From NCBI RefSeq assembly GCF_006345805.1, contig NC_042998.1:143716001-143780000 (forward strand): 64,000 nt of DNA, written 5' to 3'. The DNA is from Octopus sinensis (Eukaryota). Made by a program: the position numbers and the translations under genes. Below the pieces are notes generated by a model. The model saw only the letters and a program-made list of their open reading frames with translations. It did no database searches and was not told the DNA's origin. The stretch's first letter is position 1. Each line of letters opens with the position of its first letter. Below, in pieces: positions 8,210 through 62,842 of the stretch.

Positions 8210-8940
8210 ATATGTAAATATAAGAGAGTGACCACTATGTGGTCTACTCTAGCAATAAAAATAGATCCGCTGGTTTCAGCCACGAAGAATTGTCTCCGAT
8301 GAAAGTTAGCACAACTATTAGCGTAAACGAACAGGGCAAATAAAGAATAACAAAAATGCAGATTAATTCAGGACAACTGTTTCGCTATTAATAAATTATG
8401 TAATTTTACTCACATAACATATCTGTGACTCCTCGGCTGAATTTGTCTAGAATACAATTTACTCAATCGCATGCCAGATTTTACCATAACGATAAACACA
8501 CATGCGGTTCAGTCGATTGCATTCGCCGTTATAATTCAAGTGCCCCCGCCAAAGCCCGCCAAAATTCACGGAAACAGATACTACATCAAAAATTAGATGC
8601 AGTATAATTACAATCAACTAATAAAGGTGAGAAAATTGGATACTAATTGAATAGTACCATCAATTCAACACCAAGTGGCTTAGTGCATAAAAACCAGGAA
8701 TACAATAAATTTTATATGTAAATATAAGAGAGTGACCACTATGTGGTCTACTCTAGCACTAAAAATAGATCCGCTGGTTTCAGCCACGAAGAATTGTCTC
8801 CGATGAAAGTTAGCACAACTATTAGCGTAAACGAACAGGGCAAATAAAGAATAACAAAAATGCAGATTAATTCAGGACAAGATATGTTATGTGAGTAAAA
8901 TTACATAATTTATTAATAGCGAAACAATTGTCCTGAATTG
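8210..8940. mobile_element. Hammerhead-containing retrozyme/pLTR-like insertion, monomer ~504 nt, with short inverted plus-strand segment
   Basis: TAAGAGAGTGACCACTATG at 8221 and 8725 (~165-nt near-perfect direct repeat); 8881-8939 is the reverse complement of 8365-8423. Confidence 0.8.
8365..8443 (-). ncRNA. Type I hammerhead ribozyme with extended stem II
   Basis: rc: AATTCAG-CCGAGGA-(46 nt, hairpins)-GAAA-CAGTTG-TC-CTGAATT; 7-bp stem I; the inverted partial copy has perfect palindrome CAATTG. Confidence 0.75.
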
Positions 8941-8959: not shown

Positions 8960-10570
8960 GGCCACCGTTTAGCCAATCTTCCGGTCGGAAAAAATGTCGA
9001 GCGGCATATCTTCTGGCTGTTTTTATTCTGAGTTCCAATAATGCCTAGACCAATTTTGACTTTAATCCTTTCAAGGTCGATGAAATAAGTACCAGCTGAG
9101 CACCTGGGTTTCCAGAGATTACTTATTCAAACCCCAAATAATCCTTCACAACACATGGCTAATCAAACAACTGACAAGCAATTCTGTAGCCCATCTTTTA
9201 CACCAACACAAAACAGGCGCATGATAACTCTTTCAATAGGTTAAGGTCAGAAACCAATGGAGCCACTGCCTAGTACTGCATCAAAGCACTTATTATAACT
9301 ATTATCTTTATAAAGCCGGCGATCTGGCAGAATCGTTAGCACGCCGGGCGAAATACTTAGCTACATTTCATCCGTCTTTACGTTCAAATTTCCACCGAGG
9401 TTGATTTGCCTTTTGTACTTTCGGGGTTGATAAAATAAGTACCAGTTGAGTACTGGAGTCGATTTAATCGACTTAGTCCTTTTCTCAAAACTGCTGTCCT
9501 TGCACAAAAATTTAAAGCCGTTGTTATTATTATTATTAGTAGTAATAGTAGTAGTAGTTAAGGCGGTGAGCTGGCAGAAACGTTAGCACGCCGGGCGAAA
9601 TGCGTAGCCGTAAAATTCCGCCGAGGTCGACTTTACCTTTCATCCTTTCGGGGTCGATTAAATAAGTACCAGTTACGCACTTGGGTCGATGTAATCGACT
9701 TAATCCGTGTGTTTGTCCTTGTTTGTCCCCTCTGTGTTTAGCTCCTTGTGGGTAGTAAAGAAATAGGTATTTCGTCTGTCTTTACGTTCTGAGTTCAAAT
9801 TCTGCCGAGGTCGACTTTGCCTTTCATCCTTTCGGGGTCGCTAAATTAAGCACCAATTACGTACTAGGGTCGATGTAATTGACTTGATCCCTTTGTCTGT
9901 CCTTGTTTGTCCCCTCTATGTTTAGTCCCTTGTAGGCAATAAAGAAATAAGAAACGTTAGCACATCGGGCGAAATGCGTAGCCGTATTTCGTTTGTCGTT
10001 AGTTCTGAGTTCAAATTCCGCCGAGGTCGACTTTGCCTTTCATCCTTTCGGGGTCGATAAATTAAGTACCAGTTACACACTGGGGTCGATGTAATCGACT
10101 TAATCCTTTTGTCTGTACTTGTTTGTTCCCTCTATGTTTAGCCTCATGTGGGTAATAAAGAAATAAGAATCGTTAGCAAGCCTGGCGAAATGCTTAGCGG
10201 TATAGTTCAAATTCCACCGAGCTCGACTTTGCCTTTCATCCTTTCGGTGTCGACTAAATAAGTACCAGTTACGCACTGGGGTCGATGTAATCGACTCACC
10301 CCTTCCCTCCAAATTTCAAGCCTTGTGCCTATGGTAAAAAGGTCATTATTATCATTATTAGTTAAAAGGCGACGAGCTGGTAGAAACGTTAGCACGCCGG
10401 ACGAAATGCTTAGGCACATTTCGTCCGTCTTTATGTATCTGAGTTCAAATTACGCCGGGGTCGACTTTACCTTTCATCCTTTCGTGATCGATCAAAAAAG
10501 TACAAGTTGAACACTGAGGTCGATTACATCGACAGGCCCCTTTCCCAAAAATTTCAGGCCATGTGCCTAT
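8960..10570 (+). mobile_element. Cluster/tandem array of SINE family B (~7 copies)
   Basis: Repeated AAGGCGGCGAGCTGGCAGAAACGTTAGCACGCCGGGCGAAAT...GAGTTCAAATTCCGCCGAGGTCGACTTTGCCTTTCATCCTTTCGGGGTCGA...AAGTACCAG. Confidence 0.9.
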
Positions 10571-16925: not shown

Positions 16926-17118
16926 TTAAAATTATAATTGGGGTATCTAAGAGTTACCTCCACGCTGGAAATAGCAGCCAAAACTTGACTCTAAAACCAC
17001 ATTAAATGTTCATACCGTACCTGGTGTGGTATGAACATTTAATGTGGTTTTAGAGACAAGTTTTGGCTGCTATTTCCAGCGTGGAGGTATCTCTTAGATA
17101 CCCTAAATTATAATTTTA
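16926..17118. repeat. Near-perfect ~190-bp palindrome between (TA)n tracts
   Basis: GGGTATCTAAGAGTTACCTCCACGCTGGAAATAGCAGCCAAAAC...GTTCATACC mirrored by GGTATGAAC...GTTTTGGCTGCTATTTCCAGCGTGGAGGTATCTCTTAGATACCC; ~11-nt loop. Confidence 0.9.
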
Positions 17119-22577: not shown

Positions 22578-24180
22578 ATGTGGACTGGTTTAACTTTTCC
22601 AGGCGTCCCCGTCATCTAAACATCTCCCAGCGAACTCTCGGCCCTTCGATGTCTCCGACACCGTACTGACATCATTATAAAACCGGCTGACAAGAGTGGA
22701 GCCGTGGTGGTGTAACGCGCGGACCTCTACAAGGCCGAAGCTTTCCGCCAACTTCAAGAAACCCCCATCAACTGCCCTCTGCCCTCTGACCCCACGCACA
22801 GCTACCAACAGACTGTGTCCTCCACTATCTATGACCTCATCTCCTCCTCCCGTTTCCCCTCCCCATCGCCTCCAACCTCATTGTCCGCACCCCTCGCATC
22901 CCACCATTTATTTCCTCCCCAAAACCCACAAGCCTAACAACCCCGGGCCTCCCCATCGTCTCCGCCTGAAACTGCCCCACCGAACTCATCTCCAAGTATC
23001 TTGACCGTGTCCTTGCCTCCCTAGTGACTTCCCTCCCCTCTCACATCCATGACACCAACCACGCGCTTCGTTTGTTCAACTCTTTCTCCTTCCCTCCTGG
23101 CTCCTCTAAACTTTTCTTCACCCTCGGCATCGAGAGCCTCTACACGGTGATCCCTCACCACGAGGGGCTGTATGCACACCAACATTTCCTTGACCTTCGA
23201 CCCAACCTCCAACATGACACATCCACACTCGTTCGTCTGGTTGAACTTGTCCTCTCACTCAACTGCTTCTCGCTCGCGGGTGGCCATGGGAACGAGAATG
23301 GGCCCCAACTATGCGAACCTGTTCGTTGGCTACGTTGAGGCTCAAATATTCTCAAGTTTCACTGGTCCCACTCCCGAACTATACGGCCGTTATATTGACG
23401 ACTGTATCGGTGCGACCTCACTCTCAGGCGAACATCTAGATACCTTCCTCTCTTTTGTCAAATCTTTCCATCCTTCCCTCTACTTCTCCTGTACTAGAAA
23501 GGAGACACCTCTGTCTCCTTTCTTGACATTTCGGTCAGCATTCATCACTCCACTCTCACCACCTCCATCCACTACAAACAAACAAACTCACACTCATACC
23601 TCAACTTCTCTTCCTCCCACCCTAAACACACCAAGCTTTTCATCCCCTATTCCCAATTCCTTCGTCTACGCAGGCTCTGTAGTGACGACCATGACTAAGA
23701 CTCAGTCTCAACTCATGGCTTGCCACTTCATCCTACGTGGATATCCCCTCACCACTATCCACACCGGCCGTGCATCTGCTCTCTCCCCCGAACCCGCACC
23801 GCCGTCTCCCACCTCCTATTTCCCCTCACCTACCAACCCACCACCCTACCTCTCCATCGCACCATTCTCCGAGCCTTCCGGCGACTCCAGTCCGACCCCT
23901 CCACTTCGCACATCTTCCCTAACCGACCACTCCCCTCCTTCAAACGAGCCTACAACCTACGAGACCTCTTGGTCCACAGCTTCTTCCCTAATCCAACCTC
24001 CCAACCCTGCTCATTCCCCTGCTCCCGCCCACGCTGCTGCACTTACCTTTACTTCTTCAACACCACCCTCCCCACCGGCACCCATCATCGACCCTATCAC
24101 ATCACCGACTCCTTCACCTGCACTTCTACCAATATCATCTACTGCATCTCCTGCTCTCTCTGCCCTTCTCTATACTTCGT
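22578..24180 (+). mobile_element. Penelope-like element (Neptune-type) RT plus start of GIY-YIG, frameshifted and truncated
   Basis: DIIIKPADK, IYFLPKTHKPNNPG, IESLYTVIPH, VAMGTRMGPNYANLFVG, RYIDD, IPYSQFLRLRRLCS, CSRPRCCT..HITDSFTCTSTNIIYCISCSLCPSLY. Confidence 0.92.
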
Positions 24181-24189
24181 TAACTTGTA

Positions 24190-27554: not shown

Positions 27555-27604
<50 letters not shown>

Positions 27605-27610
27605 ATATAT

Positions 27611-28186
27611 AAGGTGAGAAAAATTTTTGGAAAAAAATCTTATTTCTTCATTATATTAGCACATTCATTCGTTCACGAACTTGTCAAATGAAATTTTATA
27701 AATGTACAAAACAGCTTGTTCATTTACATAAAACAGATGGGTTTTTTTTGCGGGGGGTGTTTAGAATAAGAGAACATTGTCTTTGTTTTTAGGGAGTGAG
27801 GTTCCATTGACAATCGAGATGGATAGATAAAAATATAGATAGGCTGATAGATAGATAGATAGATAGATATATATATATATATATAATATATATATATATA
27901 TATAGATATATATATATATATATATATAAGGTGAGAAAAATTTTTGGAAAAAAATCTTATTTCTTCATATTATTAGCACATTCATTCGTTTCACGAACTT
28001 GTCAAATGAAATTTTATAAATGTACAAAACAGCTTGTTCATTTACATAAAACAGATGGGTTTTTTTTGCGGGGGGTGTTTAGAATAAGAGAACATTGTCT
28101 TTGTTTTTAGGGAGTGAGGTTCCATTGACAATCGAGATGGATAGATAAAAATATAGATAGGCTGATAGATAGATAGATAGATAGAT

Positions 28187-28220
<34 letters not shown>
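27611..28220. repeat. Tandem duplication, ~317-bp unit bounded by (TA)n
   Basis: AAGGTGAGAAAAATTTTTGG at 27611 and 27928; units differ mostly by single-base indels. Confidence 0.9.
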
Positions 28221-38514: not shown

Positions 38515-38923
38515 GGAAAGTATGTTTCATAGTGCTCGCTTGATTATTATCTGTTGCTGTAACAATGTACTCGGCACCTATTGGTGCTTTGATGACAGCG
38601 ACGATGACAAGGAGAAACACTTTTCGAAAACAAAGAATCCGTACTTTAGTTGAAAACGAATGAACGGTACTGAGTTCATCTCTTTTTCTCAGAATCACCA
38701 GAAGCGAACAAATGCTGCAAGGCAAATTTTCCGACGCTCTCATGGTTCTGTTAACTCACCGCAATATCCATTTGTATTAAATGCTGTCATCATTTGACAC
38801 TAAATATATGAGATATTTAGAAATAATAATGTTTATATATCTAGGAGAATGTTTATATATAGGAGAATGTTTATATATCTAGGAGAAAGAGTCCAATTAG
38901 ATCACAGATGCCTGCCCCATCAT

Positions 38924-40111
38924 ATGGGTTCATATGATGGGGCAGGCATCTGTGATCTAATTGGACTCTTTCTCCTAGATACCTTCGGTAAAACATTCCC
39001 TAACGTACATTTCGCCATCTACAAAGATGATGCCCTCGCCTTAACAGCTAATACAAATGGACCAGCACAAGATCGTTTTAGGAAGGATATTATCCAGTTA
39101 ATGAAACACTTCGGACTTAGTATAACTATAGACACTAACCTGACGGTTGTCAATTTCTTAGACGTTTCCTTAGATCTTAATAGTAATATTTATAAGCCTT
39201 ATAGGAAGCCCAATGATAGACTAAGTTATATTAATGTAGGTTCATGCCATCCCCCTATAGTATTCAAAAATTTAGTTAAAAATATTAGTAAGAGGATTTC
39301 TAGCCTCTCATCTAATGAGGACATCTTCAATAGCGTTGCCCCAGTTTATAATAAAGCTTTAAAAGATAGTGGTTTTAGCGAAAAAATAAAATATACACCT
39401 ATCACCAGCCCAACAGTAAGGAAAAGGAATAATAGAAATAGGAAGGTCATCTTGTTTACGCCCCCTTACTCACCCGAGGTGGCCTTCAATATAGGTAAAT
39501 ATTTCCTAGCACTGATAGATAGACATTTTCCAGTTAACCATGCTTATAGGAAACTCTTCAATAGACACAATTTAAAAATTAGTTTTAGTTCAACTACCAA
39601 TTTTAAAAACATAATCAATCATAACATACAAAGAACACAAGAAGAAAACAGCTGTTCATGCAGGAATAAAGAATTGTGCCCGCTAAATGGAGCTTGCATG
39701 TCCAAGACCATCATATATGAAGCTACCGTAAACTCTATAACCACTAAAGACACCGTTTCGACGAAGAAATACGTGGGCCTGACAGAGGGTAATTTCAAGG
39801 CCAGGTTCAATAACCACACTTTGAGCTTTAGGCACTGGAACAAAAGAAAAGCGACACAATTATCCAATCATATTTGGTCTTTAAGAGATAAAGGTGTCGA
39901 TTATAACATACAATGGAAGATTTTGGCCAGATGTAAGCCCTATACTAACGGCAGCGGAAGGTGCGGTTTATGCGACATGGAGAGATGGCTTATCTGGAAA
40001 AGCAGCTTAGACCCTACCACATGTCTAAATAGAAGGACAGAGCTTTTCGGATCATGCCCACATGTGACTAAATTTCTGTTACGTTTTTGGTCCCCTAAAG
40101 AAAACGGATAG
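38924..40111 (+). CDS. PLE reverse transcriptase (motifs B-E, thumb) plus GIY-YIG endonuclease, N-truncated
   Basis: MGSYDGAGICDLIG, YKDD, VNFLDVSLDL, YKPYRKPND, SCHPP, CSCRNKELCPLNGAC, IIYEA..YVGLTEGNFKARFNNH, CGLCDME, LNRRTEL..CPH. Confidence 0.9.
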   Translation: MGSYDGAGICDLIGLFLLDTFGKTFPNVHFAIYKDDALALTANTNGPAQDRFRKDIIQLMKHFGLSITIDTNLTVVNFLDVSLDLNSNIYKPYRKPNDRLSYINVGSCHPPIVFKNLVKNISKRISSLSSNEDIFNSVAPVYNKALKDSGFSEKIKYTPITSPTVRKRNNRNRKVILFTPPYSPEVAFNIGKYFLALIDRHFPVNHAYRKLFNRHNLKISFSSTTNFKNIINHNIQRTQEENSCSCRNKELCPLNGACMSKTIIYEATVNSITTKDTVSTKKYVGLTEGNFKARFNNHTLSFRHWNKRKATQLSNHIWSLRDKGVDYNIQWKILARCKPYTNGSGRCGLCDMERWLIWKSSLDPTTCLNRRTELFGSCPHVTKFLLRFWSPKENG

Positions 40112-44625: not shown

Positions 44626-45222
44626 TATCTAAATTCTTATAGATACCCGGTCGCAAATTACAAAAGCTTTTCCATTTTCCAGCAATATTTGCTGAGTATT
44701 ACACAAGCAATTAAGGTGATCATGAAACGTCTCTTAGAGCCGCGTGGATCTTAGAACGTTTCTTAGTTATATCTTAATTAGCTAATCAAACTACCGTCAC
44801 TTACCAACGAAATCCAACTTTTCTTTCTATCAAATGGATACCATTGAGCTGTAAAATATTTTGCTCACTGATTACAAAAATCTACTCATTTCTCAAGATT
44901 AGATGACTCTTAATCTTCAGAGTTATGTCTCAGGGTTTTGTGGAAATAATTTTTTAATAAAATGAAACTTTTTTGCTCTATCGTGAGCTGGTTGTTTCAA
45001 TTCTTATAGTTACTTACTCTTTTTACTCTTTTACTTGTTTCAGTCATTTGACTGCGGCCATGCTGGAGCACCGCCTTTAGTCGAGCAAATCGACCCCGGG
45101 ACTTATTCTTTTTTGTAAGCCCAGTACTTATTCTATCGTTCTCTTTTTGCCGAACCGCTAAGTGACGGGGACGTAAACACAACATCATCGGTTGTCAAGC
45201 AATGCTAGGGGGACAAACACAC

Positions 45223-45272
<50 letters not shown>

Positions 45273-45318
45273 ATATATATATATATTAATATATAATATA
45301 TTTTTATTATATAGAAGG

Positions 45319-45369
45319 AGCTTCTACAGGACTAGTACTGTTTCATTCAGAGAAAATCTTCAGGAAGCT
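45319..45369 (-). ncRNA. Type I hammerhead ribozyme
   Basis: rc: AGCTTC-CTGAAGA-ttttctctgaat-GAAA-CAGTACTAGTCCTG-TA-GAAGCT. Confidence 0.8.
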
Positions 45370-45717
45370 ATTTAACAAGAATTGTATTAGCATTTATACA
45401 TTTAGGCAGGTTTAAAGGAGTGGTGGTGGGGGACTTTTTTGGGGGTAGGCATAGCGCAAGATATCATACTTGGGGGAGTGGTCAAGGAGTCAGTGGTAAG
45501 TAGATGAAAGAATAGATAAATAAAAAAATAAAATAAAAAAATAAAAAAAAAAAATAAAAAAAAAAAATAAAAATAAAAAAATAAAAAGTAAAAAATAAAA
45601 ATAAAAAATAAAATAAAAAAATAAAGTGTGTGCACAAACATACATAAACACATATACATACACACACACATACGTACACATGTGTGCCTATACATACCTA
45701 CACATACACATACATAC

Positions 45718-45766
<49 letters not shown>

Positions 45767-46087
45767 ATCAAATACAGGCCCATTCCCTAATTTTAATTTT
45801 ATTATCTTCATTTATTACTTTTGTTATCTTTGATCGCTAGGGCTAAGGATCCTGGCGATGGCAGCATATCCAATGTCTGTCTACTAGAAGGCGAGTACTC
45901 GTTCCCGCACGCACACTCATTAGCACGTACATACACCCATTCGTACACTCATACACATACACGTACGCACGCGTTATATTCATACATACAAACATCTACA
46001 TACGTTCACGTATATACACACACGTACTCGTACCTACAGATTCATGTCTACACTTTAGGAGGCTAGTCTATATATATACACCAATAA

Positions 46088-46143
<56 letters not shown>

Positions 46144-46616
46144 TATACACATACACACACCCACACACATATATATACTCCTACATACAGATACATACCC
46201 ATATATATATACATATACACACACATACATATATACATATAATTATATATACATACATATATATATATATACATACATATATATATATATAATATATATA
46301 TATATACATACATACACACACAACATATATACACACACATACATACACATTATATACATACACAAACATATACACACATATATATATATACATATATACA
46401 CACATACATACACACACCTACATACATATACACACAAACACATACATACGTAAACATACATACATACATCCATACATCCATACTTACATGCATTTATACG
46501 CATACATACACCCCATCTATATATATATATATATACATATATATACACACTCACACATACATATACAAATATATGTATTTGTATTTGTATATGTATGTGT
46601 GAGTGTGTATATATTG

Positions 46617-46671
<55 letters not shown>

Positions 46672-46893
46672 ATATATATAGATGGGGGTGTATGTATGCG
46701 TATAAATGCATGTAAGTATGGATGTATGGATGTATGTATGTATGTTTACGTATGTATGTGTTTGTGTGTATATGTATGTAGGTGTGTGTATGTATGTGTG
46801 TATATATGTATATATATTATGTGTGTATATATGTTTGTGTATGTATATATATGTGTATGTATGTGTGTGTATATATGTGTGTGTGTGTGTATG

Positions 46894-46928
<35 letters not shown>

Positions 46929-47045
46929 TGTATATATATATATATGTATATAGTATGTGTGTGTATATGTATATATATATGGGTATGTATCTGTATGTAG
47001 GAGTAGTATATATATGTGTGGGGGTGTGTGTATGTGTATATGTGT

Positions 47046-47091
<46 letters not shown>

Positions 47092-47822
47092 TTATTGGTG
47101 TATATATATAGACTAGCCTCCTAAAGTGTAGACATGAATCTGTAGGTACGAGTACGTATGTGTATATACGTGAACGTATGTAGATGTTTGTATGTATGAA
47201 TATAACGCGTGCGTACGTGTATGTGTATGAGTGTACGAATGGGTGTATGTACGTGCTAATGAGTGTGCGTGCGGGAACGAGTACTTGCCTTCTAGTAGAC
47301 AGACAATTGGACATGCTGCCATCGCCTGGATCCTTAGCCCTAGCGATCAAAGATAACAAAAGTAATAAATGAAGATAATAAAATTAAAATTAGGGAATGG
47401 GCCTGTATTTGATTGTGTATATATATATATATATTATATATATTATATATTATATATATTATATATAATATGTATTATATATATATATGTATGTATGTGT
47501 GTATGTGTAGGTATGTATAGGCACACATGTGTACGTATGTGTGTGTGTATGTATATGTGTTATGTATGTATGTGCACACACTTTATTTTTTTATTTTTTT
47601 ATTTTTTATTTTTTATTTTATTTTTTACTTTTTATTTTTTATTTTTTATTTTTTATTTTTTATTTTATTTTTTTATTTATCTATTCTTTCATCTAACTTA
47701 CCACTGACTCCTTGACCACTCCCCAAGTATGATATCTTGCGATATGCCTACCCCCAAAAAAGTCCCCCACCACTCCTTTAAAACTGCCTAAATGTATAAA
47801 TGCTAATACAATTCTTGTAAAT

Positions 47823-47873
47823 AGCTTCCTGAAGATTTCTCTTGAATGAAACAGTACTAGTCCTGTAGAAGCT
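47823..47873 (+). ncRNA. Type I hammerhead ribozyme
   Basis: AGCTTC-CTGAAGA-tTTCtcttGAAt-GAAA-CAG(tACTAGTc)CTG-TA-GAAGCT; 6-bp stem I, GUA site, palindromic loop III. Confidence 0.82.
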
Positions 47874-50658
47874 CCTTCTATATAATAAATTAATTTTACT
47901 CTGCTATGTATTGAGTACCTTACTTACTGTGGTTAACCCGGATCAACCCGGGACCTACATATATATAATATATATATATATATATCATAATATACGACAG
48001 GCTTCTTTCAGTTTCCGTCTACCAAATCCACTCACAAGGCATTGGTCGGCCCGGGGCTATAGCAGAAGACACTTGCCCAAGATGCCACGCAGTGGGACTG
48101 AACCCGGAACCATGTGGTTGGTTAGCAAGCTACTTACCACACAGCCACTCCTGCGCCTGTACTTGGTCGCTTTTTGTATAAATCATAATAATTTTTCAAT
48201 ATTTGAGAATGTTTTGTCCTATTATGTGAGCAAATAAAGCAAACCAAAAGCTTCTCTTTGTCTCACGTCGATCTTATGATGATCTTTACTTTGTTCTCTG
48301 ACTACATTGGCTAATAAACCTTCGATCAATTACCAACTTTTTAAGCATTGGATGCAAAACCAGTTGATCTTTACAAAGTTTCTTTGCTGATTACAAAAAA
48401 CAAACTCATTTTTTAAGCCTGAATAATGTTATTGAGTTTACAGAATTAGATCCCTATGATTTGTGTAAATGATTCCCTAATCAAATGAAAGTTTTTTTTG
48501 TTCCACCAGAAGGTGATAGTATCAAATTTCATTGGTTTCTGGTCGCTAATTATGAAAATTCTTATGTTTGGCTATTACTTTAGCAAATAAGGTTATACTT
48601 AAACCCCTACTGTTATAGCCGCATTATTGTCTCAGTTTAGTTTTACTTTCATAAGCTTAACAAACTACCAACAATTACCAACAAACTTCAATTTTTATCA
48701 TGTATTGTAGATGAAGCCAATCGATCTTTATAAATTTCGGTCGCGAATTGAAAAATCCTTTTCATTTTACAAAATTAGCTAAAATTATTGAATTTATAGT
48801 GTTATGTGCCAAGGGATTTTGTAAATGATTCCTTAACAAAATGAAACTCTTTGCCGTGCCAGATGATTATGTCAACTTTTATAAATACTTGGTCGCTAAT
48901 AAGGTAATAATTGAACTTTCTTAGAAATGCAGGGATCTTATGTTGCTTCTTATTTAGTTGTGTCTTCATGGTGTTATATGCGAGATAAATGTTTGGAGAG
49001 CACAGGATACAAAAATTAATGAAAAAATAAACAAATAAAAGAATTCTGTGGAATCTTGATTTCACATCTATATACTTAGGAACTGATATATGCATTAAAA
49101 GAAGTTGTGGTTTTATCACGGAGCAGCTCTGCTCAGCAGATTTACGATCAAAGATTTTTCCACCTGTGAAAATACTCGAGCATAATTACTTCTATTTATA
49201 AAACTGTATGGGTATGATTCGAGAAAAACTTGTCTACTATTTTCAGCAGATTAAACGACTACATAGAGACTCTTTCGTTGGTTATAGTATTAAATATATT
49301 GGCCCTAGAAATGCTAGCATAAGATTTGAACTCATAGCCCATATGTTAATTTAATATTTCAATCATTCTTGCAATTCGTTTCTTCATAAAGTGGATCTCC
49401 ATCAGTTTCGACGATGAGTATTCATTTGTTCGATCAACTCAACAATCGATTCATTGAGTAAACATGGAAGTGGTTGAGTATTTCACGGACACTGAAAGTG
49501 ATTCTCAGAATTAACGTGACACAGTGTGTGATAAGGCTGGATCCTTGAATTACAAGTACAATCCATCCGACAGCTTCTGCACAGTCTCCGTCCCATTGCA
49601 CTGCAACTTGGACAAATGTTTTCTACAATGGTATTGCAAAGACACCTTCCCACAATGCTACACAACAGGATCGGACCTGTGACCTCATGAGTGACAGGCA
49701 AACTTCTTAAATGACACTGGGGCCTGATTCCACGCAGAGCGATCGAACCAGGTATGTAACGACTGCGAGACGAACTCGTTAACCATTCGACCATGCAGCG
49801 ATATCGTCAGTTGCTGATTAATAAATGTTACATGATTTACTTGGCTTTCAAAGTCTGCTCGAACGATGTTTTAAGAGAGTAACGTGACCGGCTGTAGTGA
49901 TTTTTAACGAGAATTACTAAAATTTCTCTCTCTCTCTCTCTCTATCTATCTCTTGCTCCTCCTCTCTTTATCTATCTATTTATCTATGTATCTCTCCCTC
50001 CCCACCCCTCTCTCTCTCTCAGGATGCGTCTTCAACTGACAAAATTATATTTCTTAATTAAGTTTTAACTAATTAGTCGCTTTATGTCTAACGATTAAAA
50101 AATATGTCAGCTGTGAAAAGGCCAGTAAAAGGCGAATGAATAATGGTTAGTGGGAGTGAGGCTGGAATATTTACATACAAGCCTCAAATTTGACCTAGTT
50201 TCATGGATAAGATTGACAGTGGATATGCAAGTATGCACGTGTATGTGTGTGTGCGTGCATGTGTGTGTGTAGCATGCGTACGCGTATGTATGTTCACATA
50301 TGTACGCATTATATATGTGTGTACGTATAAGAAATTGTGTGTGTATGAATGTATGTATATAAGTATTTTTTAATCTTTTTTTTTCCTGCAAAATTAATTA
50401 GGTGTTTGAGAGAGAGAGAGCGGGTTATAGGTGTGGTTGGGAATGCATGGAAAGGAATTAGTGAAAGAGAAAATATGTGTGAAATGAAAGAGAGAGAGAG
50501 GGGGTGAATGGCTGAGAGTGGATAGGGAAAAAAAACAAAAAAATTATTCGAAATTAAAATCAAATATAATTATCCGTAGCATATATATATATATATATAT
50601 ACATACAAATTTACTGTTAACAAAGTCGAGATACGTGGCATTCAGTTACTCCATAAAG

Positions 50659-56357: not shown

Positions 56358-57852
56358 TCAATTTTATTTGTAATAATTTAGTGTTAAATGAACATAATTC
56401 ACAAACATAAACAGTAATGAAATGCCGATAAAAATCAGTTAACTAAGCTGAAGTAGGAGCAAGCACATCAAACTAGAATAAACTCTTGACTCCACCCCAC
56501 TTCGAAGGATAGCCCGAGATATATAGATATACATCAAGCCAGACGGATTTCTCTAACCCTCTCCCCTCTCTCTCGATAGATTCAAGTGACTGTCAGACAG
56601 AGGAGTGTTTATAGATATATATTTTTACATGCTCTAGTAAGAGTACATTTCAATATTTCATTATATGTGTTCAAGTTTGGAATTTTTACAATTAAAATCT
56701 ACTCGAAGTGGTGTAAAAAAATAAGAGAAGTAGCAGCAGCTGTGACAGCCCATATTGTGATGGTATCCATTTTATGTAGTAGCAGTTACGTAAAAATCTA
56801 CAGACAGATAACTCCGAATACAATAATACTTGCTTTTTCTACTTCCTCCTACCCCGAGCTATTTACAATCACATATTTTAAGCCAATGTAATTGTAAAGC
56901 GACATATGAACAAATAAGAGGAGTGTAGAGACAGTCAGTTGTACTTCCCGTTTTATAAATGCATCGGTGCCATAAATAACTGTCTGCCTGTCCATCTTTT
57001 ATTTTATCTTTATTTTCATTAGCTTGACCGGTGAGCTTCCTATAGACAACTCTAGTTTACCTGGATTACAGCACCGATCATTAGGACGTTGGAATTTTAG
57101 GTAACACTAATGTCTATACACGAACGTGTGTGTGTGTGTGTGTGTATGTGTGTGTGCGTGTGCGTGCGTGTGTGTGCGCGCGCGCTACCCGTTATATGGA
57201 CGGATAACTTTGAAAGTATGGCATACATTGAATAAATAAAGTTTAACATTTTTTATAAAACTTTTCGGTATTTATACAAAATTATGAAATGAATACAAAT
57301 TTTCAAAAAATATATTTTATTAACTTCAAATAGAATTAAATAAAACAAGTAAAATTTCGAAACAAAAATTATCCATTACGGATCTCCGTGATGATTTTAT
57401 TATAAACAGTCCAAAAACACCATTTCTCTCCTCCTTTTTCTCTCTCGGTCTAATTCTTTCTGAGTGTATATTATTCATGTTACTCATTGCCAGTCATGCA
57501 CTCATCCTGCACCTCCTATGTTAACTCTGTATCTCTCTTTCACTCTCCCCCTCTCTCTATACATTGTAAAGCGTGACTAGAAAATCAACCAACCAACCAA
57601 CATTTATATTGGTTATTATTAGAGATTAAATACATATAAAATGTTACATAAACAATAATTAAAATATATCTGCCACCGAGTGGAGTTTCTGTAATTTACT
57701 AGCAACGAAATGAAAACAGTTCGAATTTGAAATTAATATCGGTTCGATGTTACCATAAATCTAATAATTTCCTTTGCTCTTTTCTATCTTGCTAGAGGTT
57801 TCTTTTCAGTATATAATGCATAATTAAATTATTTCAAAAGTGTTAAATTTTA

Positions 57853-58600
57853 ATGCACATGGAAGATCGCATTGAGAGAAAACGGCGATTGGCACGGGAG
57901 AGGAAGGCGAGGCAAAGAATACGAGAACGAGAAGCACGAAAACTAGCAAGATGTCGTTCAGATTTTTCAAATATACAACAGGTAATTGTAAATCAAAGAC
58001 AAACAGAGGTAAAAGTTATCAGTCGCAGAGAAATTGCCCGACTTCGAACTGCAGAAAGAAGGCGAAGATTATCACAAGAAGAACTCAATGCTCGGCGTGA
58101 ATTGGAGAGGAGGAGGAGTGCGGCGAAACGACAACAAGAAACACAAGAACAAAAACAAGCAAGACTCGAAAAAGAAAGAATAAGATTAAGTAAAAAAAGA
58201 CAAAATGAAACACAACAGCAAAGAAAAGCTAGATTGGAAAAAGAAAGGATAAGAATGATTGTAAAAAGACAAAAGGGGACACAGGAAGAAAGAAAGGCAA
58301 GACTCGAAAAAGAAAGAAAGCGACTCCTTACACTAAGACATCAAAATGAAAGTGTGGAGGACGAAGAACAAAAGTTATTTGTTGGAAATATATATGGGGT
58401 TCTCGCAACTGAAGAAGATGAAGAACATGGGACCAGTGAAAGACAAAGTAATGCAACAGTTCAAAGCAACAGAGTCGACAATACTTTCCATGAAGAAAGT
58501 TTACTGCATCATTCATGTGGGTCTCTGATATCTTATAGTACCAAATATTCTTTATCAGAAAGTCCTTCAGATGATAGATTAAGTAACAGCTGCCACGAAG
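57853..58600 (+). CDS. Putative coding exon: Arg/Glu/Lys-rich 21-aa repeats resembling Helitron RepHel N-terminal region
   Basis: Intact non-microsatellite ORF; repeats ETQEQKQARLEKERIR x3-4; FHEESLLHHSCGSL; upstream pyrimidine tract and AG (57795/57809); donor GAAG|GTAAAA at 58600 (otherwise stop at 58623). Confidence 0.6.
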
Positions 58601-59961
58601 GTAAAACAATTTTGACTGCATAATTTATTCCGTACTCCTAAAAAAACAAAAACTCCCGTTATTGTTGACGGGTAATATTCTTAAATATACTTAGAGCAAA
58701 GTTGTTGAATATGTGCGTAAACAATGATCTCTGGTACAAAACGAATGGAACTGTATACTTACATAATACTTATATATTTACATAAGATTTTACTATTGTT
58801 TGGTATATTTTAAAGGCATACAAAAGCACATCTTAGAATTTTCGTACACATTCGGGGATTCTACACATGTAGTTTGAATAATAAATTTATGGGTCAATGA
58901 GGCAGCCTGCGATTAGTAATACTAATTAATTAAATTGACTAAATTACCGCTTTATAGTAATTTTATAAACAATAAAACACCATACTTCATAATTTTTGCA
59001 GATAATCGGGCAATCCGGCATGTTCTTTCTATGTGGTCCCTTTCGTTTTGTACCGGAGCTTGTTGTGTAGGTATGTATATAAATATACATGTTTAAAATA
59101 AATACGTCTGTTAAGTGTAAATATATAATACGATTATGAGCGTCTGCGAACACTCTCAAAGATGTGTTCTCCTTCGTCGTGTGTTGAAGTTTTGAAGTTC
59201 GCTTCCACTTCCGTTTATAAATTAGCTGGTCGCAGCCTTATCTCCCCTGAAACTAGATTGGATTGCTCCATATACCTCAACACCCCTCTATCGTTACTTT
59301 CGTTGCCAATTTGACTTCATTCTTCTGTCTTTCTCAGTAAACTCTGTGATATTTAGATGGGTTAGCATATGTATGTATGTATATATGCATGTATGTATAT
59401 ATGTATCTGCTGGTGCTTTTATCACTATACATTACACAATCCTGTAATATCCGTCCTTTATTACATACACACACACACACACATATTTATATATAAACTG
59501 CATACACACATGTATATATAGTGTGTCTTCTAAAAGTAAAAGTATATCTTATATCTTTTCATTTAGTCATTGGACTGTGGTCATGCTGGGGCACCACCTT
59601 GAAGCGTTTAGTGAAACAAAACGATCCCAGTACTTTTTTTTTTTTTTGAAACTCTGATACTTATCCTTTTCAGGGTTTTTTGCCGAGCTACAACAAACCA
59701 ACACCGAATGTTAAGTGCGGGGGGATACGCGCGCGCGCCCTTGCATTTATACTCGATAGACTTCCGCGCAATTTCTGTCTACCAAATTCAGTTGTAAGGC
59801 ATACAAAGAAAACATTTGCCCAGAGTGTCTTGTTTATATATATATATATCACCGTGACCGACCAGATTATCAGATGTTGCTACACATCGCTGGTCACAAT
59901 GCGCTTCGTATTGTTTTAAGCCTTCAAATGACGCCACCCCGCTGGCTAAGCGAGCAGGCCA

Positions 59962-61744: not shown

Positions 61745-62842
61745 CTGATGATAGTTGAGTGGTTAGTGAGAGCTGTACAAGCCATGTGCAGGGATGCTGT
61801 CAGTAAGGTGAGGGTTGGGAACGTGTACAGTGAAGGATTCCTGTAGGGGTAGGGGTCCACCAAGGATCAGTCCTCAGCCCATCTTATTCATCATAGTCCT
61901 CCAGGCAATAACAGATGAATTCAAGACAGGATGCCCCTGGGAGCCTCTCTATGCTGATGACCTTACTCTTATAACTGAGTCACTATCAAAACTAGAGGAG
62001 AAGTTTCAGGTGTGGAAGCAGGGTCTAGAAACAAAGGGCCTTAGATTCAGTCTAGCAAACACCAAAGTCTTAATAAGTAGGAAGGCAGACATACCACAAA
62101 TTCCTTCAGGTAGATGGCCCTGCACAATCTGCAGAAAACAGCTTCATCACATTCCAGGGGGGAAAACTACAAGTAGTTGCTAGCTTCAGTTGCAGGAGCG
62201 GATGCTCTGAGAGTGTAGCTGCATGACCTTCGAACATTGGGTCTCACCGAGGCAATGACAAGTGACCAAGACCTTTGGAGATATGCTGTGCTTGAGAAGA
62301 CCTGGCACGCTAAGTGAGACTGTAACCGTGGCCTATGCCAGTGCAGCATAACCAGCACATTTAAGAGTACCCTTCAATCATTGGGCAATAAACTGCACTT
62401 GCAAAGACCTGTTGAAGCAAGTGAAGTCATTATCATAGCCAATGAAAGTACCACCTGTGCTGGTGGCACGTAAAGAAGCACCATTCAAGTGTAGCCGATG
62501 CCAGTGCCGCCTGACTGGTCCTGTGCCGGTAGCATGTAAAAAGCACCATTTCAGCGTGATCGTTACCAGTGTTGCCTGACTGGTTCCCATGCCAGCGGCA
62601 CGTAAAAAGCACCATTCGAGCATGGTCGATGCCAGTCCTGCCTCACTGGCCTGCATGCCAGTAGCACATAAAAAGCACCCACTACCCTCGCAGAGTGGTT
62701 GGCATTAGGAAGGGTATCCAGCTGTAGAAACTTTGCCAGATCGGATTGGAGTCTGGTGTAGCCTTTTGGCTTTCCAGCCCTCAGTCAACCTGTCCAACCC
62801 ATGCCAGCATGGAAAGCGGATGTTAAACGATGATGATGATGA
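61745..62842 (+). mobile_element. RTE-type LINE, truncated and internally deleted, with repetitive 3' UTR and (GAT)n tail
   Basis: [48 protein letters not shown]; repeats GGCACGTAAAAAGCACC; tail GTTAAACGATGATGAT. Confidence 0.9.

What the first reader, a model, noticed from the sequence alone, without database searches (positions are those of the whole stretch)
45304..47955. 2.6-kb palindrome tipped with hammerheads, inserted in a SINE's (TA)n tract
Two ~1.25-kb arms, largely microsatellite plus unique blocks, end in outward-facing canonical HHRs (CUGAAGA/GAAA/GUA). The whole unit splits one SINE at its central microsatellite. It fits a PLE-type 5' inversion and, if transcribed, would give >1 kb dsRNA, a possible ADAR or siRNA substrate. 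Caveat: arm differences are mostly homopolymer or microsatellite indels, so a long-read fold-back artefact is possible. The asymmetric spacer and intact SINE halves on both sides argue against that.
Basis: partly seen in the sequence, partly recalled or inferred. Interest (0 to 1): 0.7.

Follow-up and report, generated by a model that had tools for sequence, protein, structure and literature searches.

The report
Head-to-head Penelope retroelement ends splitting SINE
The palindrome is two back-to-back copies of the ribozyme-motif end of a very common Penelope-like jumping gene sitting in the AT repeat of a short repeat element; the layout is already described, but the family's strict 'one arm with tail, one without' pattern likely records how these elements are copied.

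Summary
The palindrome is real and ordinary in kind. Arms 45303-46573 (-) and 46582-47889 (+) are the last ~1.3 kb of a Penelope-like element (PLE) with Hydra-clade motifs, joined head to head with an 8-nt spacer. Only the right arm carries a 72-nt tail. The unit sits in the central (TA)n of one SINE. The hammerhead core occurs 2,794 times in the genome; 70 of the first 100 listed lie in head-to-head pairs and none tail-to-tail, so a chance fold-back artefact is unlikely. Reads did not cover this locus's own junctions. In 54 of 54 tail-blind pairs exactly one arm is tailed; the longer arm is either one (13 vs 16); 4 of 4 tested substitutions shared by two arms occur nowhere else. Likely mechanism: both target strands prime reverse transcription of one RNA at two sites 72 nt apart. 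Fold-back copying or arm conversion remain rivals. The layout is published (PMC8557442, PMC3846280), and this scan has reported it on other DNA in this and other genomes. Unusual for the clade: a 3-kb microsatellite 3' UTR. dsRNA, editing and cleavage are untested.

The parts
45036..45225 (-). 3' half of the target SINE (SINE read on the - strand)
   Evidence: matches intact copies in window and loci up to the central microsatellite
45226..45302 (.). left part of the (TA)n target tract
   Evidence: sequence, TRF
45303..46573 (-). inverted, tailless arm: 3' UTR end plus pLTR of the PLE
45319..45369 (-). type I hammerhead motif, rare stem II variant (3 exact copies in the genome); predicted cut between 45325 and 45324
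46574..46581 (.). 8-nt spacer at the head-to-head junction; repeats letters at the start of the right arm
46582..47889 (+). tailed arm: 3' UTR end plus pLTR, non-coding, about 2 kb downstream of the parent ORF's stop
47823..47873 (+). type I hammerhead motif, common family form (2,794 exact core matches); predicted cut between 47867 and 47868
47891..47962 (+). 72-nt one-sided tail; in tandem full-length copies it is the 5' UTR segment ending 44 nt before the ORF's ATG
   Evidence: L058, L067, L069, L073, L074
47963..47992 (.). right part of the (TA)n target tract
47993..48158 (-). 5' half of the target SINE; A/B-box-like head read by eye

Best explanation
The palindrome consists of two 5'-truncated 3' ends of a high-copy Penelope-like retroelement joined head to head inside a SINE's (TA)n tract, likely made in one insertion in which both nicked target strands primed reverse transcription of the same RNA at two fixed sites 72 nt apart. 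Shown: identity of the arms, parent ORF, two fixed 3' ends, one tailed and one tailless arm per pair, (TA)n on both sides. Inferred: the element's GIY-YIG endonuclease nicks both strands of (TA)n; one strand primes just past the hammerhead (tailless arm), the other at the tail's end (tailed arm); both cDNAs stop early, here at nearly the same point, and are joined by end repair. The hammerheads are passengers of the pLTR and would be blocked in any RNA that spans both arms. Confidence is about 0.95 for the identity and about 0.55 for twin priming on one RNA.
For: Right end matches 40 full-length places at 96-100% (1,883 candidates, 40 scored). Arms are collinear with the 3' UTR behind an RT-endonuclease ORF (L031, P0001) and with tandem pLTR-ORF-pLTR copies. 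All listed ends stop at one of two positions and run into (TA)n. 35 head-to-head pairs, 2 tandem, 0 tail-to-tail among the first 100 of 2,794 matches. One tailed plus one tailless arm in 54 of 54 tail-blind pairs and 32 of 32 tail-selected pairs; among the 54, 22 near-symmetric, 29 asymmetric (tailed longer 13, tailless longer 16), 3 unclear. A short tailed arm cannot be copied from a longer tailless cDNA. Arms share locus-private substitutions: 4 of 4 patterns hit only the two arms of their own palindrome, this one included; 24 of 35 doubleton variants lie in one locus; their rate does not rise in the older subfamily (1.4 vs 1.0 per 1,000 sites) while arm-specific ones do (0.8 vs 3.0; Fisher p=0.012). 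In vitro, the PLE PAc nicks and extends both strands and starts at two sites that bracket its tail (PMC11167929, main text parts 1-2).
Against: If shared variants came from a source RNA, a source copy should carry them; none was found in 4 of 4 searches. 4 of 23 shared variants are CpG transitions against 32 CpG positions in 527, which looks like genomic mutation and fits later arm-to-arm conversion. Junction microhomology was not clean: of 54 junctions scored within 25 nt (60 anchored, 63 tried), 19 overlap by 2 nt or more, 7 by 0-1, 28 have inserts, many probably reference mismatch. Young loci were picked as best matches, which biases variant rates. Pfam gave no significant hit for P0001 and no solved structure matched. 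This locus's junctions were not covered by reads.
Confidence: 0.6

Rival explanations
1. Fold-back copying: one tailed cDNA folds back at a self-complementary spot and is copied until the tailless end site; later deletion at the palindrome centre shortens either arm at random.
For: Locus-private variants shared by both arms with no other carrier. 22 of 54 pairs are near-symmetric, this locus included. 12 of 35 pairs join at or beside the self-complementary AGCT in hammerhead stem I. Self-priming was proposed for PLE palindromes in PMC3846280 (Discussion passages).
Against: 16 of 29 asymmetric pairs have the tailless arm longer, some by 2-4 kb, which needs a second process. Tailless 3' ends with no partner in the fetched stretch exist (L058, L063, L070, L078, L082, L096). 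Near-symmetric pairs also occur among older-subfamily loci (L097, L110, L120, L127).
Confidence: 0.27
2. Two independent cDNAs from different RNA molecules, with the arms homogenised afterwards by conversion between arms or by assembly polishing.
For: CpG transitions among shared variants (4 of 23). No source copy for 4 of 4 variants. 13 arm differences fall on positions that vary in 3 or more other arms.
Against: Shared variants are not more frequent in the older subfamily. Two RNAs give no reason for the strict one-tail rule. No clear pair with one young and one old arm was seen.
Confidence: 0.1
3. Long-read fold-back or assembly artefact that doubled a single arm.
For: Most arm differences are indels in runs; 27 of 41 arm-specific private substitutions across loci are transversions, error-like; the left stem II variant is a double homopolymer shift seen 3 times; no reads span this locus.
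Against: A read fold-back would mirror the tail and the right flank; instead the left arm stops at the family's fixed tailless end and enters the other SINE half. Same rule in 54 of 54 pairs. Raw Illumina reads of another sample (X23, 5 reads) and contigs of X1 (2) continue upstream of the hammerhead with its reverse complement, i.e. the head-to-head joint.
Confidence: 0.03

Closest known systems
Insertion units of endonuclease-bearing Penelope-like elements with an inverted 5'-truncated copy and one-sided tail (PMC8557442, passages of sections 6 and 15; PMC3846280, passages of section 6 and Discussion)
   Same: Head-to-head inverted copy, tail at one end only, partial tandems forming pLTRs, hammerhead in the pLTR, AT-rich target.
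   Different: Tail is 72 nt against 30-40 nt; about 70% of sampled hammerhead motifs are in such pairs; arms here reach 1.3 kb into a microsatellite 3' UTR; the one-tail rule was counted (54 of 54).
Hydra clade of PLEs, including Hydra-1_Obim from Octopus bimaculoides (PMC8557442 section 11 read whole; supplement rows seen)
   Same: C-terminal endonuclease, RW(K/R), DKT, CxCx5C linker, CxxC and CxH beside the conserved E and N, (TA)n target, hammerhead present.
   Different: Unit length 4.9-5.8 kb against 'generally <3 kb' (Hydra-1_Obim 2,507 bp), owing to a 3-kb 3' UTR about 62% TA/TG-type repeat. The listed Hydra-1_Obim hammerhead has a 7-bp stem II and a different sequence, and its protein differs by eye, so this is another family. 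No tree with the named references was built.
PAc (Poseidon of Anolis carolinensis) in vitro (PMC11167929, parts 1-2 of 4 read)
   Same: Two RT start sites bracketing the tail, both strands cut and extended, AT-rich target, hammerhead upstream of the tail not needed for insertion.
   Different: Different clade; in PAc the tail lies within the ORF start, here it ends 44 nt before the ATG. In the parts read and a word search ('inverted', 1 unrelated hit) the paper does not link two-strand extension to inverted copies.
Type I hammerheads of metazoan PLEs (PMC4209133, part 1 of 4 read)
   Same: Type I fold with 6-bp stem I, palindromic letters in loop III, unpaired U at the 5' side of stem II; pairs of motifs on opposite strands 100-700 bp apart already noted there.
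   Different: Stem II only 3 bp with U-U closure; stem III 4 bp with an 8-nt loop, longer than the 1-2 bp described.

Membership tests
EN+ Penelope-like element | single ORF with RT and C-terminal GIY-YIG endonuclease | tested here: met
   In parent copies, not in the window's arms: YRDD and VY...YIG motifs; Atlas neighbours at 0.96 carry RVT_1 (48%) and GIY-YIG (47%); 589 homologs at E<=1e-10. Direct Pfam scan gave no significant hit.
EN+ Penelope-like element | pLTRs formed by partial tandems | tested here: met
   Hammerhead block plus tail directly before the ORF in L058, L067, L069, L073, L074.
EN+ Penelope-like element | inverted 5'-truncated copy and tail at one end | tested here: met
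   This locus and 54 of 54 tail-blind pairs.
EN+ Penelope-like element | hammerhead motif in the pLTR | tested here: met
   Core and stems I-III by motif and fold; no Rfam match.
EN+ Penelope-like element | target-site duplication | tested here: inconclusive
   Both ends run into (TA)n; a duplication cannot be told apart.
Hydra clade | RWK and DKT motifs | tested here: met
   RWR and DKT in L058 and L073; most homologs have RWK.
Hydra clade | CxCx5C linker; CxxC and CxH around conserved E and N; no CCHH | tested here: met
   CNC-x5-C, CDLC, CMH in P0001, aligned in homologs; absence of CCHH judged by eye.
Hydra clade | insertion into (TA)n | tested here: met
   Free ends listed and the C1 pairs printed enter TA-rich tracts.
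Hydra clade | phylogenetic placement with named Hydra references | not tested
   Reference sequences were only read in the supplement. Unit length 4.9-5.8 kb departs from the paper's descriptive 'generally <3 kb', so the clade label is likely, not shown by tree.
Active hammerhead ribozyme | self-cleavage at GUA | not testable with these tools
   Hammerhead fold -7.3 (right) and -4.1 (left) kcal/mol, not the lowest-energy fold; RNA runs are contigs only.
Non-LTR retrozyme | tandem repeats with a hammerhead in each unit (bioRxiv 10.64898/2026.07.22.740005, part 1 of 5 read) | tested here: not met
   Two inverted copies, no tandem units; an autonomous parent exists.
Foldback/MITE DNA transposon | fixed element with matching terminal inverted repeats (recalled definition) | tested here: not met
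   The ends differ by the tail and the centre varies from locus to locus, units 0.12-7.6 kb.

The most novel reading that the evidence does not exclude
PLE head-to-head palindromes are the product of twin priming: a dimeric RT-endonuclease loads both cut target strands onto one RNA at the two ends of the tail, so every two-armed insertion has exactly one tail. About a thousand recent copies in this genome, with a hot spot of stops at the hammerhead's 5' edge (possibly the transcript's 5' end reached from the upstream pLTR), make this countable, and the element spreads 3 kb of microsatellite, including new (TA)n targets, with each long copy.
Probability: 0.4. Interest if true: 0.55.

Novelty: new member of a known kind. 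Interest (0 to 1): 0.3.

Why it matters
The locus is ordinary, but how PLEs form their inverted structures is named as an open question (PMC8557442, section 15 passage). This family gives countable constraints: strict one-tail rule, arm length independent of the tail, single-molecule sharing of variants, and a stop hot spot at the hammerhead. It also adds many near-perfect kilobase palindromes to the genome, which would be dsRNA sources where they fall in transcribed introns (untested).

Tried and rejected
Rfam: only sub-threshold microRNA hits from microsatellite hairpins over the arms, no hammerhead match at the left motif. Pfam and PDB sequence searches of P0001 found nothing significant. 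Junction microhomology was too noisy to decide the joining step. Reads: only the right junction was laid; X1, X6 and X23 gave no depth on the unique flank and X11 one 210-nt contig, so presence, polymorphism and transcription of this locus stay open; depth over repeats is family-level and X6 is only guessed to be RNA. The idea that splitting a SINE is special was rejected: 3 of 95 pairs are flanked by both SINE halves (this one, L014, L066) and 3 more by one, with short flanks for many. RNA editing as the source of shared variants is not supported: G>A 5, T>C 5, A>G 4 of 23. Literature searches found no paper on this octopus-type family or on a counted one-tail rule; subscription papers are not in the library, and the one octopus repeat paper searched by word (PMC13282606) has no 'palindrom' or 'hammerhead'. 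Searches were wrong-frame or wrong-strand translations and were not used. One pair (L071) was dropped from the tail count because its end lay at the locus edge.

Full report
Observation. The region was read directly and the arms aligned: 1,222 matches, 11 substitutions within the arms, 143 gap columns almost all in simple repeats. The inverted repeat spans 45303-46573 and 46582-47889 around an 8-nt spacer. The right arm continues for 72 nt (47891-47962) that the left arm lacks. Each arm ends in an outward-facing type I hammerhead motif with intact core, 6-bp stem I, 4-bp stem III and a weak 3-bp stem II; Rfam does not score it. The flanks are the two halves of one SINE in one orientation; 27 intact copies have 21-141 nt at that point. 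That the host is an octopus is my inference from recall of this SINE and from earlier scan notes; no call names the organism.

What the arms are. The right end matches 40 places over its full length at 96-100% (1,883 candidates, 40 scored) and the inner unique block 40 places at 99-100% (1,193 candidates, 40 scored). [quoted passage not shown] Copies L058, L067, L069, L073 and L074 show hammerhead block, tail and ORF start in tandem, i.e. pLTRs. The protein carries the Hydra-clade marks of PMC8557442 section 11: RW(K/R), DKT, CxCx5C, CxxC and CxH. Pfam and PDB searches were blank; Atlas neighbours carry RVT_1 and GIY-YIG on about half their members. The full-length copies translated here have frame breaks. 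The window's arms hold only the last 1.3 kb of the 3' UTR and pLTR. Units measure 4.9-5.8 kb with a 3-kb microsatellite UTR, longer than described Hydra elements; Hydra-1_Obim (2,507 bp) differs by eye in protein and hammerhead.

How common. The 26-nt hammerhead core occurs 2,794 times, the reversed control 0 times. Of the first 100 listed (contig C1), 70 form 35 head-to-head pairs within 8 kb, with 2 tandem pairs and no tail-to-tail pair; 12 of the 35 join within 15 nt of the core. Roughly a thousand palindromes is an extrapolation from that sample. 3 of 95 pairs examined split a SINE as here.

The tail rule. Free 3' ends stop at one of two positions 72 nt apart, each TA-like and followed by (TA)n. 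In three sets chosen without regard to the tail (6 by ORF, 14 by the inner block, 34 of the 35 C1 pairs; the 35th is L056) 54 of 54 pairs have one tailed and one tailless arm; L071 was dropped at the locus edge. In the tail-selected set 32 of 32 partners are tailless. Of the 54, 22 are near-symmetric, 13 have the tailed arm longer, 16 the tailless arm longer, 3 are unclear.

One template. Across 87 block pairs (17,443 sites) 23 substitutions are shared by both arms of one locus and seen in no other sampled arm, and 41 are private to one arm; 24 of 35 doubletons sit in one locus. Four shared variants, including this locus's own, hit only their two arms in the whole genome. Shared variants are mostly transitions (16 of 23, 4 at CpG); arm-specific ones mostly transversions (27 of 41), so partly assembly error. 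This locus's arms differ at 6 of 478 callable unique sites. The shared rate does not rise in the older subfamily while the arm-specific rate does, on small numbers and with selection bias.

Mechanism. PAc protein cuts and extends both strands, starts at two RNA sites that bracket the tail, and is predicted to dimerise (PMC11167929). Putting both strands on one RNA at the two sites explains the one-tail rule, the independence of arm length from the tail, the many symmetric centres (both cDNAs reaching one RNA end) and single ends of either type; this step is my inference. It explains shared variants only if their source copies are missing from the assembly, which 4 of 4 searches require. Fold-back of a tailed cDNA (self-priming is proposed in PMC3846280) explains the shared variants directly but needs later central deletions for 16 of 29 asymmetric pairs. 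Conversion between arms can add to either. Junction letters did not decide it.

Artefact. A read fold-back would mirror tail and right flank; the left arm instead stops at the family's tailless end and enters the other SINE half. Raw Illumina reads of another sample show the head-to-head joint at the hammerhead edge (5 reads in X23). Reads were laid on the right junction only and did not cover the unique flank, so this locus is supported by anatomy, not by spanning reads.

Function. A transcript across both arms would pair each hammerhead with its antisense copy (-84 against about -7 kcal/mol). No evidence for transcription, editing or small RNA was obtained.

Known and new. The inverted copy and one-sided tail are described (PMC8557442 passages; PMC3846280 passages), opposite-strand hammerhead pairs too (PMC4209133 part 1). 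The scan has reported such palindromes in this genome and the two-site priming reading and shared variants in other genomes; those notes are not evidence. I reached the Hydra reading; two notes gave the leads to PMC3846280 and Hydra-1_Obim, which I checked. Five literature searches found no account of this family or of a counted one-tail rule. Verdict: new member of a known kind, interest 0.3.

Noticed in passing
window 38804-40111 (+): Open 435-aa frame of a second Hydra-like PLE family (39% identical to P0001), 5'-truncated, with a hairpin at 38888-38969 at its 5' junction.
   Followed up: partly
window 8366-8442 (-): Rfam Hammerhead_1 match, 32.7 bits against a gathering score of 34; sequence unlike this family's motif.
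   Followed up: no
G000 C1, e.g. L102, L104, L106, L107, L111, L113-L115, L122, L125, L129, L130: 12 of 35 head-to-head pairs are minimal palindromes of about 130 nt plus tail, joined within 15 nt of the hammerhead core's 5' edge.
   Followed up: partly
L058:ORF end to pLTR; L069, L073, L074: 3' UTR of 3,038 nt in L058, about 62% in TA/TG-type runs by a crude count; units 4.9-5.8 kb. Two subfamilies differ in loop III (103 vs 66 motifs).
   Followed up: partly
L024, L047, L094, L132: Two palindromic insertions next to each other in one TA-rich tract; L132 holds a local duplication of a mini-palindrome with its SINE neighbour.
   Followed up: no
G000 C2:44572850, C2:136470416, C2:143761338: All 3 copies of the left arm's stem II variant lie on contig C2, minus strand; may be a recurring consensus error.
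   Followed up: no
window 22970-24187 (+): Fragments that read like another PLE RT by eye.
   Followed up: no
window 57847-58620 (+): 258-codon Arg/Glu/Lys-rich open frame with a 69-nt tandem inside.
   Followed up: no
window 16958-17086: Hairpin scored on both strands by sub-threshold microRNA models.
   Followed up: no
window 27555-28220, 9613-10203, 62454-62679: Tandem arrays of 318, 184/216 and 66 nt.
   Followed up: no
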